NCBI GenBank assembly: GCA_951406725.2
Contig: OX597815.1
Location: 21,576,001-21,640,000, forward strand
Source: Octopus vulgaris
Lineage: Eukaryota
Direction: 5' to 3'
DNA length: 64,000 bases
Below, one piece after another: positions 2,976 to 62,461 of the stretch. Position 1 is the stretch's first letter; each line of letters opens with the position of its first letter. The notes under the pieces were generated by a model. That model saw only the letters and a program-made list of their open reading frames with translations, had not been told where the DNA came from and made no database searches. The position numbers were made by a program, and so were the translations under genes.

Positions 2976-3056
<81 letters not shown>

Positions 3057-3260
3057 TGTGTGTGTTTGTCCTCCTAGCATTGCTTGACAACCGATGCTAG
3101 TGTGTTTATGTCCCCGTAACTTAGCGGTTCGGCAAAAGAGACCGATAGAATAAGTACTGGGCTTACAAAAGAATAAGTCCCGGGGTCGAGTTGCTCGATT
3201 AAAGGCGGTGCTCCAGCATAGCCGCAGTCAAATGACTGAAACAAGTGAAAGAGTATAGAG
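2820..3260 (+). mobile_element. SINE family A copy
   Basis: Reverse complement of the 880-1281 element, with an expanded internal (TA)n. Confidence 0.9.
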
Positions 3261-4266
3261 TAAAAGAAAAAGAAAAAAGATTTGAAAAATCTGGGCGAAA
3301 ACGGAGAAACTTCAACTCATCTCTCTGTGAGCTATTCCGAAACTCCGCCGAAATATCTTCTTCAGTGTTTCTCTCTTTTAAATGGTGTATTGCGTTTAAG
3401 AATTTTAAATTTCACTTTTATGCTGCTAATTATGAATGAAATGATTTGTATTGTTTACGGCATGTAGTACTTATTCTTACTTTATTCCAATAAAACAGCA
3501 AAAAAAAAAAGAAAAAAAAGAAAACTGTGCGAAACCCTCGGCTTTGAGTCACTCTAACTTCTGTCGATTTTTAATATAAAAACATATATACACTCATGTT
3601 TTGAATTTTATTTTTCCTGTTTACTCTCCCAAATCTGTCTGTCTGTCTGTCTGTTTGTCTGTTTGTCTATCTGTCTGTTTGTCTATCTGTCTGTCTTTCT
3701 GTCTGTCCGTCCGTCTGTCTATTTGTCTGACTGTCTGTCTGTCTGTCTGCCTGTATACCTGTCTGCCTGTCTGTCTCTCAGTCCGTGCGTCACCCTCCCT
3801 CACTATATTTTAATCCAAAAATTACTATTGAAAAGAGTTATTTCCCTTGAATTATGCTTCGATAAAAATCTATGCTGCATTGTGCAGTTTCTAATATCAA
3901 TTTATGAACGGATTTTGATGCACAGTGCAACCTGTAACGTTTTAGAAAAGTCAAATGATATCATAATGCTATATTTTCTATTAACTAACTCTGTTTGTGT
4001 TATGCTTACTTTAAAATTGCTCTTTTCTGTTCGAAATTGTTATTTAAATCATCAACTTCACTTGATGTGACATGTTCATACTTAAAATTGCAAATACTGT
4101 TTACGTCGGTAAAATAAAAATTAAAATTAGATAACTTCATATTACGTCTCGTGCAAGTCCTTCTTTGGAACACCAGAACTCACTTCTCTTTAAAACCTGT
4201 TGTATATTCCGAATCATATTTATGATGGTGCTGAAATTTGAGATAAAACTTTAGGCTACCTGTAAA

Positions 4267-4576
4267 ATCACGTGATCACGTGACCGACCAGGCTATCAGA
4301 TGTTGCCACACATCGCTGGTCACAATGCGCTTTGCATTGTTTTCGCCTTCAAATGACGCCACCCCTCTGGCTAAGCGAGCAGGCCTACAGAAGAAAGAGT
4401 GAGAGAAAGTTGTGGCGAAAGAGTACAGCAGTGATCGCCACCACTCCCTGCCGGAGCCTCTTGGAGTTTTAGGTGATTTCGCTCAGTAAATACTCACAAC
4501 GCCCGGTCTGGGAATCGAAACCGTGATCGTACGACAGCGAGTTCGCTGCCCTAACCACTGGGCCATTGCGCCTCCA
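4267..4576 (-). mobile_element. tRNA-derived SINE family B (head GGAGGCGCAATGGCCCAGTGGTTAGGGCAGC), tail type 1
   Basis: tRNA-like head with A/B boxes; matches the copy at 42380-42675. Confidence 0.88.
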
Positions 4577-4918
4577 CGCCTGTAAAATAGACGGATAATT
4601 CTTTGACTTACAAGTACTGAATAAAACATTAGCCTTGGGAAAAGCTACATGAGATACGCTAGTGTTCTATCAGGGTTGTCTTTCAACTAGTTTCATATGT
4701 TACAATCTTAATATGAGCTCAAGCACAGAGAATCAAATAGATTTATGAAAGGAAATAATTTTGTATGTATTTGGCAGTCAGTTAAGGATGTTTTGCAGCC
4801 GGTCATTTGGTTTTCAGACGTTTCTTTTGCGCTACTAGTTAACGTATCAGCTTGTTTCTTGCTTGGGTTAGAAGTAATATTTACCCGCATTTGAACGTGG
4901 ATGTTCTATTAAAATAAA

Positions 4919-5865
4919 CTGCATATACTTTACTGCATATATTTTATACGCACTTTCTGACCATTACTGCATATACTTTATACTTTATACGCACTTTCTG
5001 ACCATTACTGCATATACTTTATATTTTATACGCACTTTCTGACCATTACTGCATATACTTTATACTTTATACGCACTTTCTGACCATTACTGCATATACT
5101 TTATACTTTATACGCACTTTCTGACCATTACTGCATATACTTTATACTTTATACGCACTTTCTGACCATTACTGCATATACTTTATACTTTATACGCACT
5201 TTCTGACCATTGCTGCATATACTTTATACTTTATACGCACTTTCTGACCATTACTGCATATACTTTATACTTTATACGCACTTTCTGACCATTGCTGCAT
5301 ATACTTTATACTTTATACGCACTTTCTGACCATTACTGCATATACTTTATACTTTATACGCACTTTCTGACCATTACTGCATATACTTTATACTTTATAC
5401 GCACTTTCTGACCATTACTGCATATACTTTATACTTTATACGCACTTTCTGACCATTACTGCATATACTTTATACTTTATACGCACTTTCTGACCATTAC
5501 TGCATATACTTTATATTTTATACGCACTTTCTGACCATTACTGAATATACTTTATATTTTATACGCACTTTCTGACAATTACTGCATATACTTTATATTT
5601 TATACGCACTTTCTGACCATTACTGCATATACTTTATATTTTATACGCACTTTCTGACCATTACTGCATATACTTTATATTTTATACGCACTTTCTGACC
5701 ATTACTGCATATACTTTATATTTTATACGCACTTTCTGACCATTACTGCATATACTTTATATTTTATACGCACTTTCTGACCATTACTGCATATACTTTA
5801 TATTTTATACGCACTTTCTGACCATTACTGCATATACTTTATACTTTATACGCACTTTCTGACAA
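4919..5865. repeat. 41-bp minisatellite, ~23 copies (TTACTGCATATACTTTATAC/TTTATACGCACTTTCTGACCA)
   Basis: Period 41 read directly. Runs into GACAAGTTGTGGTGCACCTGAGCACTGTATACAATAATTTCATTAT, the CR1-type 3' tail also seen at 36840-36920. Confidence 0.95.
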
Positions 5866-32373: not shown

Positions 32374-33909
32374 TGACAGTCTAAAACCTAAACTAATGGA
32401 AAGCAAACTTACATAAACTATACAATGCATGATTAGTTTCTTAATTGTAAATATACCCCACGGTGTTCCTTAATGAAATTAAAAGTAAATTCATATTTGG
32501 TGGTTCATGAAGCTTTCCTTATGAATTTTGTGGACCCCTCTCTTCTCCCTCTGTCCCTCTCTCTATCTGTCTGTATCACTCTCTTTCTCTCTTTTTTCTC
32601 TTTCACTCTCTTCATGTGTCATACATCAGTCGGTGATCATGCTCCTCCACATATTTAGCATGTTATCAGGCCAGTCTTTCTAAAGCCAGCTGGTAAGGCC
32701 ATCGGCTATCTTCTCGCACTGTCATTCTTGTCTTTTTCTCCGTTTCAGGTTTCTGGTTGTCATGAAATGCTCCAGGTTTTTTTCTTCCCGGTAGGTCATC
32801 TTCTGAATAAGGTTGTGCATCACTGTTGTAGTACACTGGAAAAAACAAAGATAGGATTGACTGTTGTAGAGTTTTTCTTAAAATTTCAGGTACTGTTTAG
32901 GGCAGGGGAAATATGCATTTTAGAAAGAAAAGGACGTACTTTTGGATTAGATTTGTCTTCTCGAAAAATATCAAGAGAATAGAAATAATGATGTACAATG
33001 TGATGGCATTAAATAGTTTCTGTTTAAGATTTCCTCCCTACTCCCAAAAGATAAAAAAAATTGAATAACCGTTTTTAACGTAAGTGCAAAGCCAGAAACT
33101 TTTTTGCTGGTAGGAGAAACATTATACTGTTGACATTTATTTATTTTATCAACCTTCTCAAGGATAAAAGTCAAATTTGATCATGGTGGGATATGAAACC
33201 AGAAGGTAGACATGGAACGCTTTAGCGATTCCACCAAATAATAATTTTACAAAAGTTCAGCCTTGCCTTATTTCCCTTTATCTCTGGTGAGACTGTTCTA
33301 GAAACTTGACAAAGTCTGTTGGAACCGAACGAGGGAGAGATAGAGTAGCTTAGGAGGAGAGTAACATATAAAGGGAAAAGAGGATTTCTTATCCAACTTT
33401 CCATATTTTAAAGCCAAAATTATTATAGAATTTATTTGCTGCTGATGGTAGCGATGATGGTATACATATGCTCTTTTATATAGAAAAGAATATTTGAAAT
33501 GCAAAATGGAGAGATGGCGATAGAGAGGAACCCATCTCTGTAACAGAGGCTAAATTGGAGTAGGTTTATCAATGTGCTTTGAAATTCATCATCACTGTCA
33601 TGAAACAGGTAGAATGCTAAGAGACTCACTATCTGCCTCTTTGCTAACAACTTGACCCTTCCTGCAAGAAAATCAAAAGTTTTTGGAGTTGTCTATAGCG
33701 GCACCTTTCACACACTGCTCTAGCTAACGGCTCCGTCAGCTGCATTTGTCAAGTGTCTTAACGCCTGCCTTATCATTTGGTACCACTGTATCTTTAGTTT
33801 GGTGTTCTCGCACAAGAATCTGTCGAGTTGGGCACCAACATCACTAGAATATCATGTGCTCGTGAAGAGCACAATTACTGAACCCGCTAGCATCACACTT
33901 TTTGCTCTT

Positions 33910-34320
33910 ATTTCTTTATTGCCCATAAGGGGCTAAACATAGAGGGGACAAACAAGGACAGACAAAGCGATTAAGTAGATTACATCGACCCCAGTGCGTA
34001 ACTGGTACTTATTTAATTGACCCCGAAAGGATGAAAGGCAAAGTCGACCTCGGCGGAATTTGAACCCAGACAGACGAAAAATACCTATTTCTTTACTACC
34101 CAGAAGGGGCTAAACACAGAGAGGACAAACAAGGACAGACAAACGGATTAAGTCGATTACATCGACTCCAGTGCGTAACTGGTACTTATTTAATCGACCC
34201 CGAAAGGATGAAAGGCAAAGTCGACCTCGGTGGAATATGAACTCAGAACGTACAGATAGACGAAAAATACCACTAAGCATTTCGTCCGGCGTGCTAACGT
34301 TTCTGCCAGCTCGCCGCCTT
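33910..34320 (-). mobile_element. SINE family C (head AAGGCGGCGAGCTGGCAGAA), dimer
   Basis: Head plus two ~180-bp units; ~15-bp imperfect TSD (ACAC[T/C]TTTTGCTCTT). Confidence 0.88.
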
Positions 34321-35067: not shown

Positions 35068-35849
35068 AAGGCGGCGAGCTGGCAGAAACGTTAGCACGCC
35101 GCGCGAAATGCGTAGCCGTGTTTCGTCTGCCGTTACGTTTTGAGTTCAAATTCCGCCGAGGTCGACTTTGCCTTTCATCCATTCGGGGTCGATAAATAAG
35201 GTACCAGATACATACTGGGGTCGATGTAATCGATTTAATCCGTTTGTCTGTCCTTGTTTGTCCTCTCTGTGTTTGGCCCTTTGAGGGTAGTAAAGAAATA
35301 GGTATTTCGTCTGCCGCTACGTTCTGAAGTTCAAATTCCTCCAAGATCGACTTTGCCTTTCGTCCCTTCGGGGTCGATAAATTAAGTACCAGTTACGCAC
35401 TGGGGTAGATGTAATCGACTTAATACCTATGTCTGTCCTTGTTTGTCCCCTCTGTGTTTAGCCCCTTGTGGGTAATAAAGGAATAGGTATTTCGTCTGTC
35501 GTTACGTTTTGAGTTCAAATTCCGCCGGGGTCGACTTTGCCTTTCATCCTTTCGGGGTCGATAAATTAAGTACCAGTTAAGCACTGGGGTCGATATAATC
35601 GACTTAATACTTATGTCTGTCCATGTTTGTCCCCTCTATGTTTAGCCCCTTGTGGGTAATAAAGAAATAGGTATTTCGTCTGCCGTTACGTTTTGAGTTC
35701 AAATTCCGCCGGGGTCGACTTTGCCTTTCATCCTTTCGGGGTCGATAAATTAAGTACCAGTTACGCACCAGTGTAATCGATTTAATCCGTTTGTCTGTCC
35801 TTGTTTGTCCCCTCTGTGTTTGGCCCCTTATGGGTAGTAAAGAAATAGG
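35068..35849 (+). mobile_element. SINE family C tetramer with ~52-bp TSD
   Basis: Head plus four ~183-bp units joined at AAAGAAATAG|GTATTTCGTC; flank 35016-35067 is repeated at 35851-35903. Confidence 0.92.
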
Positions 35850-36322
35850 TTGTAAATAACAATTCCAGTACTAATTTATTTCATTCATATAATGGCAGTG
35901 AAATACTCTGCAACTATATTTGACTTCGCTAGTCTTGTTGACAGTTCTTCAAACCCAGATAACTGAATGAGCAGATTTCTGTGGGAAGAACCGTCACCAT
36001 CTTATATTATTTTCAGAAATACATTAGCCAAAGTGTTTTTTTAAAATGAGATTACCATATGATTTTACGGAAATCTAGTTGTTGTATTTTAGCGTCACAA
36101 TCACGACGCAAAGGCTCCCTTGCTGGTTCAACTTAAATAGTATATATTATTTTCTCAAAAGATTCACATTGTGCACACCATAACCTCTCCAAGGCAAAGA
36201 CATCTCAACCTCAGCAAGGGTTTCATTAGCTTGTAATATCTGTCTGTCTGAATGTCAGTCTGTCTGTATGAACAAAAACACACCTGCAACAGTAGTGGTC
36301 TCTTGAACATTTTGTTTTTCAT

Positions 36323-45363: not shown

Positions 45364-45602
45364 CATAATATTCTAGAGAATTGGATGCTGCGAGTCGGTT
45401 TAGTTGTTTTATTTTATTTATTTTAATCACTGGTCTTTGGTCATGCTGGTGCTCTACTTTTTGTCGGTCATATCCCAATACCTATTTTATCGACTTTTTT
45501 TTTTATCGAACAGGTATACGAGACATAAAAGGACCCAACGGTTGTTTCCATGTTGTAAACCGATGAACATAGAAATCGACGGATACCTTCCCACATGCGT
45601 AC

Positions 45603-46020
45603 CTATTTCTTTACTACCCACAAGAGGCTAAACACAGAGGGGACAAACAAGCACAGAGAAACGGAGTAAGTCGATAATATCGACCCCAGTGCGTAACAGG
45701 TACTTATTTAATCGATCCCGAAAGGATGAAAAGCAAAGTCGACCTCAGCGAAATTTGAACTCAGAACGTAACGGCAGACGAAATACCTATTTCTTTACTA
45801 CCCACAAGGGGCTAAGCACAGAGAGGACAAACAAGGACAGACAAACGGATTAAGTCGATTATATCGACCCCAGTACGTAACTAGTACTTATTCAATCAAC
45901 CACGAAAGGATGAAGGGCAAAGTCGACCTCGGCGGAATTTGAACTCAGAACGTAACGGCAGACAAAATACGGCTACGCATTTCGTCCGGCGTGCTAACGA
46001 TTCTGCCAGCTCGCCGCCTT
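45603..46020 (-). mobile_element. SINE family C dimer
   Basis: Two units; TSD TTCCCACATGC[G/A]TACCT. Confidence 0.88.
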
Positions 46021-46069: not shown

Positions 46070-46515
46070 TTTCGCCTTACCAACTGCACGTAGTATGATC
46101 AATCCAAAGTTGGAGAGTTGTTCACGGGAGAAAGAGGTTGCACCTATACAGTTATCTACATGTGTGACCGTATAAGCTCTGGGGTTGGTCCGGAGAACTG
46201 TGAGAATATTTGGACCTCAATGTAGCCAACAAATAAGTTGCGGATGGGAATAATGGGGCAGCCAGAGTTGTAGGGTTTGTGTATTTTTGGAAGGAGATAG
46301 ATGGACGTATGGGATGTTTGGATGATGAGGTTGGTGCTGGTAGGTGGGAGTGCAGAAGAGGAGACAAGGTCATGGATGGAGGACATGTGCTGCTGGTAGG
46401 GGTGGATAGGGTTGGAGGGGGGAAGGAGACAAGTGGGGGTTTTGAAGCTGAGCACTTCCTCCCTGTATAGGTCCGCACACCACATCATGACTGCTCCACC
46501 TTTGTCCAAAGTTGT
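46070..46515 (-). mobile_element. Penelope-like element RT remnant with an internal deletion
   Basis: DKGGAVMMWCADLYREEVL...IYLLPKIHKPYNSGCPII is fused directly to NLFVGYIEVQIFSQFSGPTPEL. These are the PLE motifs DKG, LPKIHK and ANLF, with the segment between the last two missing. Confidence 0.88.
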
Positions 46516-46589
46516 AGAAGAGAAAAAAACATTTGCATATGATGCCGTACAGTGGACTTGCCTGCGTCTACAGTATTGTTTCTGAAAAC

Positions 46590-47017
46590 GAAACTAATAT
46601 GGTGTAAATTGAATTGAATATTTCCGTAATATAAACATATATGAATGTTCAAACATATTCAAACCTTGTAGAAGTAAGTAATTATAGTAACTATGCAAAG
46701 TTCGTAATATTTAGCTCTAAAACGGAAGATCTATCTCTATGATGCAGTTTTATTCATGTTTTGAGCTTTCAGAAATTCCATTTACGATTGGCCTTGCATG
46801 TGTAGAGAGAATATTTCTGTTTGTTATGAAATGTTTATAAATAGAGAAATAATAGTACAATCGAATTTCTTTCGGGATATAAAAACAATTTTGAGATTTA
46901 GTTATGTCAAATATTATCATGCTTTTGTACAGGTTAGCGTGTTAAAAGTTAATTTTAAGGGAAGGTATTTTAGCTCTCTTTAATTTATTAAACGTGTCAG
47001 GATGAGTGAATGACTAA
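46590..47017. repeat. 428-bp direct repeat, copy 2
   Basis: See copy 1. Confidence 0.95.
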
Positions 47018-47730: not shown

Positions 47731-48230
47731 GTGGCGAGCGGGCAGAACTGATAGCATGCTAGTCAAAATGCTTAGCGGTATTTCAGAGTTCAAATTCCGC
47801 CGAGGTCGATTTTGCCTTTCATCCTTTTGGTGTCGATAAATTAAGTCTGTCCTTGTTTAGTCCCTTGTGGGTAGTAAAGAAATAGGTATTTCGTCTGCCA
47901 CTACATTCTGTGTTCAATTTCTGCCGAGGTCGACTTTGCCTTGCATCCTTTCGGGGTCGATAAATTAAGTACCAGTTACGCACTGGGGTCGATGTAATCG
48001 ACTTAATCCGTCTGTCTGTCCTTGTTTGTCCTCTCTGTGTTTAGCCCCTTGTGGGTAGTAAAGAAATAGGTATTTCGTCTGCCGCTACGTTCTGAGTTCA
48101 ATTTCCGCCGAGGTCAACTTTGCCTTTCATCTTTTCGGGGTCGATGAAATAAATACCAGTTAGACACTGGGGTCAATGTAATCGATTTGCACCTCCTGAA
48201 ATTTCTGGCCTTGTGCCGAAATTTGAAACT
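47731..48230 (+). mobile_element. SINE family C trimer
   Basis: Three units with the same junction; 15-bp TSD TATACTAGAAAGAAT. Confidence 0.85.
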
Positions 48231-61149: not shown

Positions 61150-61625
61150 ATCATCATTATTTGTTGTTGTATTTCGGAATGGTCATTTTGCCAGTTTAGC
61201 CAATAAAAACACACGCACTATATATTTGGTGCTACTTTGCTTCAGCGTTATTTATTTTTTACATTAATCTTAATCTTATTTCGGCCAGAGTTCTTTCATC
61301 ACACTTTTGTGACCGCATCAGTGGTCCTTTGCTTTCTTCTTTCTTGTTTGTGTGTCTCTTCTTACAAACCGTCAGCCATTTTGTATTTCTATTGTATGTG
61401 TCTTCATTTGCGCATGCGTATATCTCTATGTGCGTCTATGTTTAGTTAGTGTGTGTGGGGGAATGCCTGTAATATTTGTATCTTCTGTTTATATACGTCC
61501 GTGTAAGATTAAGATTTAATTTATACATATATATATATATATTAAGATTAAGATGGCCGAAATAAGATTAAGATTAATGTAAAAAATAAATAACACTGAA
61601 GCAAAGTCACAACAAATATATAAAC
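61150..61625. mobile_element. Penelope-type terminal-repeat remnant with a partial inverted duplication
   Basis: 61220-61287 is inverted at 61554-61622. Degenerate hammerhead core on minus (CTGATGC-ggtca...tggcc-GAAA); flanked by (TA)n/(TAT)n. Confidence 0.55.
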
Positions 61626-61693
<68 letters not shown>

Positions 61694-61732
61694 TCTAAGT
61701 CTCTCTAAAGGAGACTACGGCAGCGGTACTGG

Positions 61733-62175
61733 ATATTAACAGTTATCGCCAAGCTAATATGGCAGTCCATATATATAGGAAGAAAGCTGCCGTTGATTAG
61801 CTCCAAGAGGCCATCGCCTCTAGCTAGCTATATGACACACGAACCTGTGTCCATTATAACCTTCGAGCAGACGGTCAGCAGCGATGCCTGCTGGGTTCGG
61901 CTACTCTGCATTGATAAAGGGCAAATACTCTGAAACATGTCTGTAGATGCCTGACCAGCAAGGGGAAGCGGCTGAGCTTCCCTGTTCGAAGGTTATAATG
62001 GACACATTATATCGTGTGTCATATAGCTAGCTAGAGGCGATGGCCTCTTGGAGCTAATGAACAGCAGCTGTCTTCCTATATTTATGGACTGCCATATTAG
62101 CTTGGCGATAACTGTTGATATATATATTAGCTTGGCGATAACTGTTGATATATATATTAGCTTGGCGATAACTGT

Positions 62176-62181
<6 letters not shown>
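61733..62181. mobile_element. Foldback element (~138-bp near-perfect arms) with terminal 30-bp tandem repeats
   Basis: 61733-61870 is the reverse complement of ~61982-62121, with about 6 mismatches and one small indel region. The last 30 bp occur three times, then (TA)n. Confidence 0.92.
61905..61947 (+). ncRNA. Minimal type-I hammerhead ribozyme at the foldback apex (U3-A8 variant)
   Basis: Stem I TCTGCA/TGTAGA; core TTGATAA; stem II AGGG(CAAATA)CTCT; GAAA; palindromic CATG loop; GTC cleavage triplet at 61939-61941. Confidence 0.65.
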
Positions 62182-62212
<31 letters not shown>

Positions 62213-62461
62213 TATGTATAAATTAAAAACAATTTTACATTAAAGTCAAAGATTATTCAAGAATTACATTTAGCAGCGTGCAAAATTAATATTCTTCAAC
62301 AAGAATAGTATTGACAGTGGTTTCGAAATCTAAGTCAGCTAAGCAATCTTTGACTGTGTTGTATTAAGAATCATCTTGGTTTTATATAGCCTCTGTTAAG
62401 TTAGAATTTTGTAGGTTAAACTGATTCTGTTGAGTGATATCCAGGTTGCAAGGTCTTTTAT

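What the first reader, a model, noticed from the sequence alone, without database searches (positions are those of the whole stretch)
61733..62181. A ~390-nt rod-shaped foldback capped by a hammerhead ribozyme
Seen: two ~138-bp arms pair almost perfectly, and pairing continues imperfectly inward (CAGC/GCTG, CCTGCTGG/CCAGCAAGG, GGC/GCC). It ends in the stem I (TCTGCA/TGTAGA) of a complete minimal hammerhead fold: TTGATAA, a 4-bp stem II, GAAA-CATG-TC. The whole element is therefore one giant stem I with the catalytic core at the tip. The 3' end has three 30-bp tandem copies running into (TA)n. Known: minimal hammerheads with a 1-bp stem III and palindromic loop occur in Penelope-like terminal repeats and retrozymes, and are thought to cleave as dimers. 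Inference: this could be a non-coding mobile RNA family that self-cleaves into long nicked dsRNA (a Dicer/ADAR substrate or a self-priming RT template) and is mobilised in trans by a Penelope RT. It does not look like an ordinary MITE: there is no TSD and the centre is catalytic-like.
Basis: partly seen in the sequence, partly recalled or inferred. Interest (0 to 1): 0.82.

Follow-up and report, generated by a model that had tools for sequence, protein, structure and literature searches.

The report
Inverted insertion of a Penelope-type retrozyme
The long fold-back is one copy of an abundant 362-base jumping repeat that carries a hammerhead (predicted self-cutting) RNA motif, and its mirror-image half is likely built anew at insertion, as is usual for Penelope-like retroelements, so it is a new member of a known kind and not a purpose-built rod RNA.

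Summary
The palindrome and the hammerhead fold are real, but the boundaries and reading change. The family unit is a 362-bp non-coding monomer with one type I hammerhead at the tip of its own ~130-nt hairpin; 412 and 1,338 exact genome matches to two short patterns. Of 77 insertions sampled without regard to the hammerhead, 42 have an inverted 5' arm, 33 a single arm; junctions vary, only 3 sit at the hairpin base as in the window, and 17 of the 42 contain no hammerhead. Every classifiable inverted copy (35 of 35) has one arm ending at a near site and the other at a far site ~55 nt on: the Penelope 'tail'. Best reading: a non-autonomous Penelope-like element (non-LTR retrozyme) inserted by two coupled cDNAs that joined at the hairpin's 11-nt self-complementary base. 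Cleavage is untested; no RNA ends or 5' truncations pile up at the cut site; the autonomous partner was not found. Side finding: an ORF1-only LINE-like cassette inserts at a fixed spot just upstream of the hammerhead in this and related families.

The parts
61684..61870 (-). Inverted arm: copy of unit positions q209-q396 (q = position in natural monomer L034:4802-5204), ending at the far site
   Evidence: blastn of monomer on window, 94.6%
61684..61732 (-).
   Evidence: same sequence flanks one end of most copies
61856..62124 (+). Forward arm: 5'-truncated unit q82-q350, ending at the near site
   Evidence: blastn 91.1%
61860..61870 (.). 11-nt junction where inverted and forward arms overlap; equals the base of the unit's own hairpin (pairs with 61982-61992)
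   Evidence: sequence; same junction in subfamily A and B copies with tail on either side
61860..61992 (+). Conserved ~130-nt imperfect hairpin of the monomer (extended helix I)
   Evidence: 93.4% of cells paired, 14 of 47 pairs with two-sided change, against 31-41% in slid controls, 32 sequences
61905..61947 (+). Type I hammerhead motif with U3-A8 core variant and palindromic helix III; predicted cut after 61941 (untested)
   Evidence: 412 exact pattern matches genome-wide, control 0; U3-A8 variant described in PMC4209133
62124..62187 (+). Two extra 30-bp copies of the near end, private to this insertion
   Evidence: TRF 3.1 copies, 100%; no other locus held shows it
62178..62220 (.). (TA)n right flank, the family's usual target
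   Evidence: 51 of 75 insertions have (TA)5 within 30 nt
61627..61693 (.). (TAT)n left flank

Best explanation
The element is one insertion of a 362-bp non-coding, hammerhead-bearing tandem unit, likely moved in trans by a Penelope-like reverse transcriptase, and its long palindrome likely arose at insertion when two cDNAs, one primed from each cut strand of an AT-rich target, joined at their 3' ends. Shown: the unit, its tandems, two fixed 3' ends ~55 nt apart (q~347 and q~403), variable 5' ends, variable inversion junctions, TA targets, and that each inverted copy uses one near and one far end. Inferred: a GIY-YIG endonuclease nicks both strands; RT starts at the two internal sites of multimeric unit RNA (as shown in vitro for the anole element PAc); RT often stops at the hairpin; here the far-primed cDNA stopped at q~209-220, the near-primed one ran through the uncleaved hammerhead to q~85, and the two annealed by the hairpin's own complementarity, giving a seamless rod. 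The hammerhead would cleave mainly as a dimer in tandem transcripts (untested) and seems not needed to define the template ends.
For: Monomer with 362-bp period and terminal overlap; same-strand hammerhead pairs 341-365 bp apart (listing); 21 of 77 insertions longer than one period. 42 of 77 inverted, 33 single-arm, 2 complex; 35 near/far, 0 near/near or far/far, 7 unclassifiable. Only 3 of 77 have the window's hairpin-base junction; 17 of 42 inverted copies lack a hammerhead. Arms overlap by 1-5 nt in 24 of 42. The two arms of a copy are closer to each other than to the mean of other copies in 22 of 23, and the window-type junction recurs in both subfamilies with the tail on either side. 5' ends cluster at q200-221 (20 of 117, null 9.1). 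A fold-back of a single near-primed cDNA cannot supply the tail on the window's inverted arm (logic). Literature: inverted 5' copy, tail at one end, microsatellite bias (PMC8557442, passages); both strands cut and extended, two internal RT start sites bounding the tail, uncleaved RNA the main substrate (PMC11167929, parts 1-2 of 4). Autonomous hammerhead-bearing, TA-flanked PLEs with two 3' ends exist in this genome.
Against: No autonomous PLE sharing sequence with the unit was found in 114 PLE loci, so the helper is unidentified. The tail is ~55 nt against the 30-40 nt reported. Within-copy arm identity reaches the best between-copy value in only 3 of 23, and arm similarity could also come from gene conversion. 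L012 and L024 share one 3-nt-overlap junction with different ends, which could mean a palindromic template was re-copied. The 5'-end windows were chosen after seeing the data (best-window scan P = 0.034). The 77-insertion sample is from one contig and from exact matches to a 26-nt pattern, so it favours younger copies.
Confidence: 0.85

Rival explanations
1. One reading: the ~390-440-nt rod is itself the selected mobile RNA; it self-cleaves at the tip to a nicked dsRNA used for self-priming or as a Dicer/ADAR substrate.
For: Very stable fold with the hammerhead free at the tip; window-type junction recurs at several loci; any read-through transcript of such a copy would form long dsRNA.
Against: 3 of 77 insertions have this form; 33 have no inverted arm; 17 of 42 inverted ones lack the ribozyme; arms track their own copy and subfamily; in three RNA-seq runs of a related organism no place with many read ends and no strand-changing joint was listed (diverged reference, about 6% of each run, library strandedness unknown, so weak).
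Confidence: 0.06
2. Same family, but the inverted arm is made by snap-back of one cDNA (or by later recombination that flips the centre) and not by two primers.
For: Hairpin-base junctions occur in both flip and flop forms; 7 of 42 junctions are near-symmetric, as fold-back would give.
Against: Snap-back explains copies with the tail on the forward arm only; the window has it on the inverted arm. It does not predict that the second end always falls on the other fixed RT start site (35 of 35); most junctions are far from symmetric.
Confidence: 0.07
3. A MITE or foldback DNA transposon whose centre happens to hold a hammerhead-like sequence.
For: Long inverted arms; TA-rich flanks.
Against: Arms have unequal, non-mirror ends, variable length, tandem units and 5' truncation; flank duplications are 9-15 nt and variable; hammerhead stems covary across families.
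Confidence: 0.02

Closest known systems
Metazoan non-LTR retrozymes (Cervera and de la Pena 2020, PMC7229834; Li, Clavereau and Pollet 2026, bioRxiv 10.64898/2026.07.22.740005)
   Same: Non-coding 362-bp unit, 44% GC, type I hammerhead, monomers to trimers dispersed, proposed PLE-mobilised.
   Different: Over half the insertions carry an inverted arm and the Penelope tail, which the parts of these papers that I read do not describe; hammerhead sits on a ~130-nt conserved hairpin; no circular RNA or cleavage shown here; no homologous pLTR found.
EN+ Penelope-like element insertions (Craig et al. 2021, PMC8557442; Frangieh et al. 2024, PMC11167929)
   Same: 5' truncation, partial tandems, inverted 5' copy, tail at one end, AT/microsatellite targets, hammerhead in the terminal repeat, no pile-up of ends at the ribozyme cut site.
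   Different: No RT-endonuclease ORF; tail ~55 nt; the strict near/far pairing of the two ends is counted here (35 of 35), while the papers state only that the tail is often at one end.
Canonical metazoan type I hammerhead and PLE U3-A8 variant (Cervera and de la Pena 2014, PMC4209133)
   Same: Helix I 6 bp, helix II 4 bp, 1-2 bp helix III with palindromic loop, U3-A8 core pair.
   Different: Not the min-HHR (long helix II, bulged base) of that paper; activity untested.
Tx1-clade target-specific LINEs and SINEU-3 (Kojima 2015, PMC4494074) - for the side finding
   Same: Insertion into another mobile element at a fixed site, tandem insertions sandwiching a TSD.
   Different: The cassette here has ORF1 only, and its target is a hammerhead retrozyme; Tx1 membership not tested (no ORF2 seen).

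Membership tests
non-LTR retrozyme | Type I hammerhead in the repeat unit | tested here: met
   core positions depart 3.6% (17/470) against 7.5% elsewhere in 47 copies not picked by the hammerhead; 16 of 26 copies in the 3'-pattern sample keep an intact core
non-LTR retrozyme | Tandem unit of 150-450 bp, GC under 50% | tested here: met
   362 bp, GC 0.44; 21 of 77 insertions exceed one period
non-LTR retrozyme | Two consecutive units with complete hammerheads (Li 2026 definition of active) | tested here: met
   four same-strand pairs 341-365 bp apart among the first 100 listed matches; not met by the window copy itself
non-LTR retrozyme | No protein coding | tested here: met
   longest ATG frame 55 aa
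non-LTR retrozyme | Expressed as monomeric linear and circular RNA | tested here: inconclusive
   related organism: 332-429 reads per 11.5-12.9 million, both directions alike, head-to-tail joints that tandem DNA also explains, no end pile-up
non-LTR retrozyme | Self-cleavage of the RNA | not testable with these tools
   needs in vitro transcription; only 1 of 9 predicted Xenopus dimers cleaved in Li 2026
Penelope-like element (insertion signature) | 5' truncation, partial tandems, inverted 5' copy | tested here: met
Penelope-like element (insertion signature) | Tail at one end bounded by two fixed 3' ends | tested here: met
   35 of 35 near/far; ~55 nt, longer than the 30-40 nt reported
Penelope-like element (insertion signature) | AT-rich / microsatellite targets | tested here: met
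   51 of 75 next to (TA)5; no genome-background control was run
autonomous Penelope-like element | RT plus GIY-YIG ORF | tested here: not met
   no PLE ORF belongs to the unit in loci L001-L195
derivative of an autonomous PLE pLTR | Sequence homology to the pLTR of a coding PLE | tested here: inconclusive
   none in 114 PLE loci from three searches; the genome holds many more PLE families
min-HHR (Cervera 2014) | Long helix II, short helix I, bulged base before helix II, no helix III loop | tested here: not met
   6/4/2-bp canonical metazoan form
MITE | Matching terminal inverted repeats, uniform length, fixed TSD | tested here: not met
   unequal ends, variable arms, variable 9-15 nt flank duplications

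The most novel reading that the evidence does not exclude
The unit's conserved ribozyme hairpin is a working hub: it halts and pairs the two cDNAs of a coupled, dimeric Penelope integration in which each target strand is assigned its own RT start site (35 of 35 copies), and the same hairpin arm is the dedicated landing site of an ORF1-only LINE-like hyperparasite that has tracked hammerhead retrozymes across at least three families of 59-72% identity, choosing a position 14-22 nt upstream of the catalytic core although the target sequences differ, and then riding in Penelope-made arrays.
Probability: 0.3. Interest if true: 0.55.

Novelty: new member of a known kind. Interest (0 to 1): 0.3.

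Why it matters
As a class it is known. Its use is as a clean read-out of Penelope integration, which Craig 2021 calls still undefined: a short, abundant, non-coding family shows that inverted insertions always combine the two RT start sites, a rule that an in vitro PLE system can test directly. It also ties an invertebrate retrozyme to PLE machinery by insertion marks and not only by co-occurrence. The retrozyme-targeting ORF1 cassette, if confirmed, would add a new target class for site-specific LINE-type elements.

Tried and rejected
Rfam: nothing relevant. Autonomous partner: a young 4.27-kb PLE beside one copy, a second family, 20 more distant hits and 30 Pfam GIY-YIG hits show no homology to the unit; local alignment to the family with the same core and loop III scored below shuffles (83 against mean 100). 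Cleavage-defined templates: 3 of 117 5' ends at q165-176, null 4.4. Sequencing runs: no RNA holder on record was listed; the lay used a related organism's raw reads and one contig set; A>G and T>C places did not exceed G>A and C>T, which says nothing on editing because the reference is a diverged copy. The first BLAST sample is biased to palindromes and the hammerhead-pattern sample to intact cores; counts therefore use the 3'-pattern sample: first 100 of 1,338 matches, all on contig C1; two sites not fetched, L166, L190, L179 and other duplicates of one insertion left out, 77 kept. Single-sequence fold of the ORF1-like protein failed (pLDDT 33). Pfam has no hit on it; Atlas best score 0.75 is a lead only. 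Literature: 'octopus + hammerhead ribozyme', 'Penelope + twin priming', 'Tx1/HAL1/target-specific' and 'retrozyme/ORF1/target site' listed nothing on this family, on twin priming in PLEs or on elements targeting retrozymes; only listings were seen, most subscription papers and Repbase/Dfam are not searchable, so absence from print is not shown. bioRxiv supplements were not seen. Whether the window copy lies in a gene was not determined.

Full report
1. The observation. The arms 61733-61870 and 61982-62121 agree at 129 of 138 aligned bases with one 2-nt gap; the region folds at -289.8 kcal/mol, z -29.7. The hammerhead descriptor matches once in the window, at 61905-61947, with predicted cut after 61941; forcing the ribozyme fold costs 0.3 kcal/mol and 0 of 20,000 Markov controls give the motif. 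Rfam does not see it. By the definitions in Cervera and de la Pena 2014 (PMC4209133; parts 1-2 of 4 read) this is the canonical metazoan type I form thought to work as a dimer, with the U3-A8 core variant they report, and not their min-HHR.

2. The family unit is a monomer. The window lies in a 2.8-Gb genome (an animal, probably a cephalopod, from my recall of its repeats, not tested). Non-palindromic hits revealed a 362-bp unit with terminal overlap; I use natural copy L034:4802-5204 as ruler q1-403. The window holds an inverted q209-396 (61870 to 61684) and a forward q82-350 (61856-62124), so it starts ~50 bp left of the reported start. A hammerhead pattern has 412 exact matches and a 3'-end pattern 1,338, controls 0. 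There are at least two subfamilies ~85% alike and a young group at 98%; the window copy is of the older type. The unit has no ORF over 55 aa and 44% GC.

3. Architecture of insertions. In 77 insertions picked by the 3' pattern on contig C1 (selection in Tried and rejected), 42 are an inverted arm plus a forward arm, 33 a single arm, 2 complex. 3' ends fall at q~345-350 or q~402-403. Of the 42, 35 have one near and one far end, none has two alike, 7 have one end eroded or elsewhere (binomial P 6e-11 against 0.5). Junctions are scattered; arms overlap by 1-5 nt in 24 of 42; only 3 of 77 join at the hairpin base as the window does; 17 of 42 hold no hammerhead, 18 one, 7 two. 51 of 75 lie beside (TA)5; outside TA runs 7 of 14 inverted and 0 of 10 single-arm copies share 9-15 nt between flanks (control 5%). 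These are the marks listed for Penelope-like insertions by Craig 2021 (PMC8557442, passages): truncation, partial tandems, inverted 5' copy, tail at one end, microsatellite bias. Frangieh 2024 (PMC11167929, parts 1-2 of 4) showed for an anole PLE that both strands are cut and extended, that two internal RT start sites bound the tail, and that uncleaved RNA is the main template.

4. What is conserved. The inner hairpin q85-220 with the ribozyme at its tip: on 30 copies of the two subfamilies plus 2 of a sister family, 93.4% of cells pair, 14 of 47 pairs show two-sided change, slid controls pair 31-41% (the structure was derived from these sequences and many two-sided cells come from the two sister rows, so this is support, not a P value). 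Between the two subfamilies one pair swaps G-C to A-U (13 and 13), several go to wobble pairs, one mismatch becomes a pair, and one terminal stem I pair is lost in subfamily B. Core positions depart less than the rest in copies not chosen for the core (3.6% against 7.5%). Helix III stays palindromic or nearly so through sequence change (ACATGT, ACTAGT, ACTATAGT, ACACGTGT), as expected for dimer cleavage. Three sister units, two of them aligned to this one at 59-72%, carry hammerheads with different stems.

5. Mechanism. Shown: section 3. Inferred: tandem copies give multimeric RNA; a PLE protein nicks both strands of an AT-rich site and primes one cDNA at the far site and one at the near site; they stop at variable points and join by short complementarity. 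5' ends cluster at q200-221, the first strand of the hairpin met by RT (20 of 117, null 9.1), and at q126-141, the 5' strand of stem I (12, null 5.2), but not at the cut site (3, null 4.4); windows were chosen after the fact, scan P 0.034. In the window the far cDNA ended at q209-220 and the near one at q85-96, which are complementary (61860-61870), so the artificial arms continue the natural hairpin without a seam. A single snap-back cannot give a tail on the inverted arm. Arms resemble their own partner more than the average other copy in 22 of 23 palindromes, though the best other copy is as close in 20 of 23; the window-type junction appears in both subfamilies with the tail left or right. 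Against full independence: L012 and L024 share one short-overlap junction. The 30-bp triplication is private, probably slippage at the TA end (inference).

6. RNA. No own-species RNA holder was on record. In three raw RNA-seq runs of a related organism (about 6% read) 332-429 reads lay on the monomer in both directions alike, with head-to-tail joints and no pile-up of ends or strand-changing joints. That shows transcription of relatives, not processing.

7. Helper. Autonomous RT/GIY-YIG PLEs are plentiful, some young; one family has the same TTGATAA core and ACATGT loop, two 3' ends ~30 nt apart and TA flanks, but none of 114 loci shares sequence with the unit. The helper is unidentified.

8. 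Side finding. At L166 and L087 the unit is interrupted by a ~1.7-kb cassette with a ~450-aa ORF. Its model (pLDDT 91, 58 sequences) shows RRM-like domains (Foldseek E 3e-4 to tandem RRMs, VIA Z 9.5, rmsd 2.3 over 78 residues) and a CCHC knuckle (Pfam PF00098 in relatives), the layout of LINE ORF1 proteins (from my knowledge). It ends in AATAAAGA, is bounded by 13-20 nt direct repeats, and forms tandems separated by that repeat. In 23 of 27 readable loci among the 30 best hits the 3' junction abuts the target sequence of a hammerhead unit of four families, 14-22 nt upstream of the core where measurable; the other 4, and further arrays, use other targets (the query came from such a site, so the share is biased). 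14 exact junctions exist for this family. It resembles Tx1-type targeting of other elements (PMC4494074, passages); an alternative is PLE-carried cargo in the place of the RT ORF.

9. Comparison and verdict. It works like, and by sequence criteria is, a metazoan non-LTR retrozyme / non-autonomous PLE (PMC7229834 passages and Discussion; bioRxiv 2026.07.22.740005 parts 1-3 of 5); cleavage and circular RNA are untested. The rod is the usual PLE inversion landing on a natural hairpin. An earlier AI note on a shark family reached the same reading (not independent evidence). New member of a known kind; interest 0.3.

Noticed in passing
L166:1042-2765 and 3022-4619; L087; L230-L259; L296: ORF1-only LINE-like cassette (RRM-like domains plus CCHC knuckle, poly(A) signal, 13-20 nt flanking repeats) inserted 14-22 nt upstream of the hammerhead core in this and sister retrozyme families; also tandem arrays at other targets (L290-L295).
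   Followed up: partly
L237:3015-3390, L234 (minus strand), L243:2990-3220: Three sister hammerhead units (two aligned at 59-72% to this one); one has a C at core position 4 (CCGAYGA).
   Followed up: partly
L226-L229: Very young 4.27-kb tandem PLE; a few copies have one 1,199-aa frame while many identical copies show it as two frames of 454 and 775 aa (shared break or programmed frameshift, not resolved).
   Followed up: no
L338-L359: A 781-aa-frame PLE family with hammerhead in the 3' region, two 3' ends ~30 nt apart, TA flanks and tandem CCAAT/TGACGTC-rich repeats after the ORF.
   Followed up: partly
unit q126-141 (window 61900-61915): Excess of 5' ends at the 5' strand of stem I, ~40 nt upstream of the cut site; could be an RT stop or a transcription start (newt satellite 2 has such a start, recalled from memory, not confirmed by any search).
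   Followed up: partly
window 61219-61287 / 61554-61622: Separate 69-nt inverted repeat, 94% complementary, 266 nt apart, just left of the element.
   Followed up: no
window 33909-34247, 35121-35850, 45600-45970, 47854-48185: Tandem ~184-bp repeat family present several times in the window and other loci.
   Followed up: no
window 4938-5863: 41-bp minisatellite, 22.6 copies, 98%.
   Followed up: no
window 46267-46668 (-): Weak match to a PLE RT region (25%, E 0.004).
   Followed up: no
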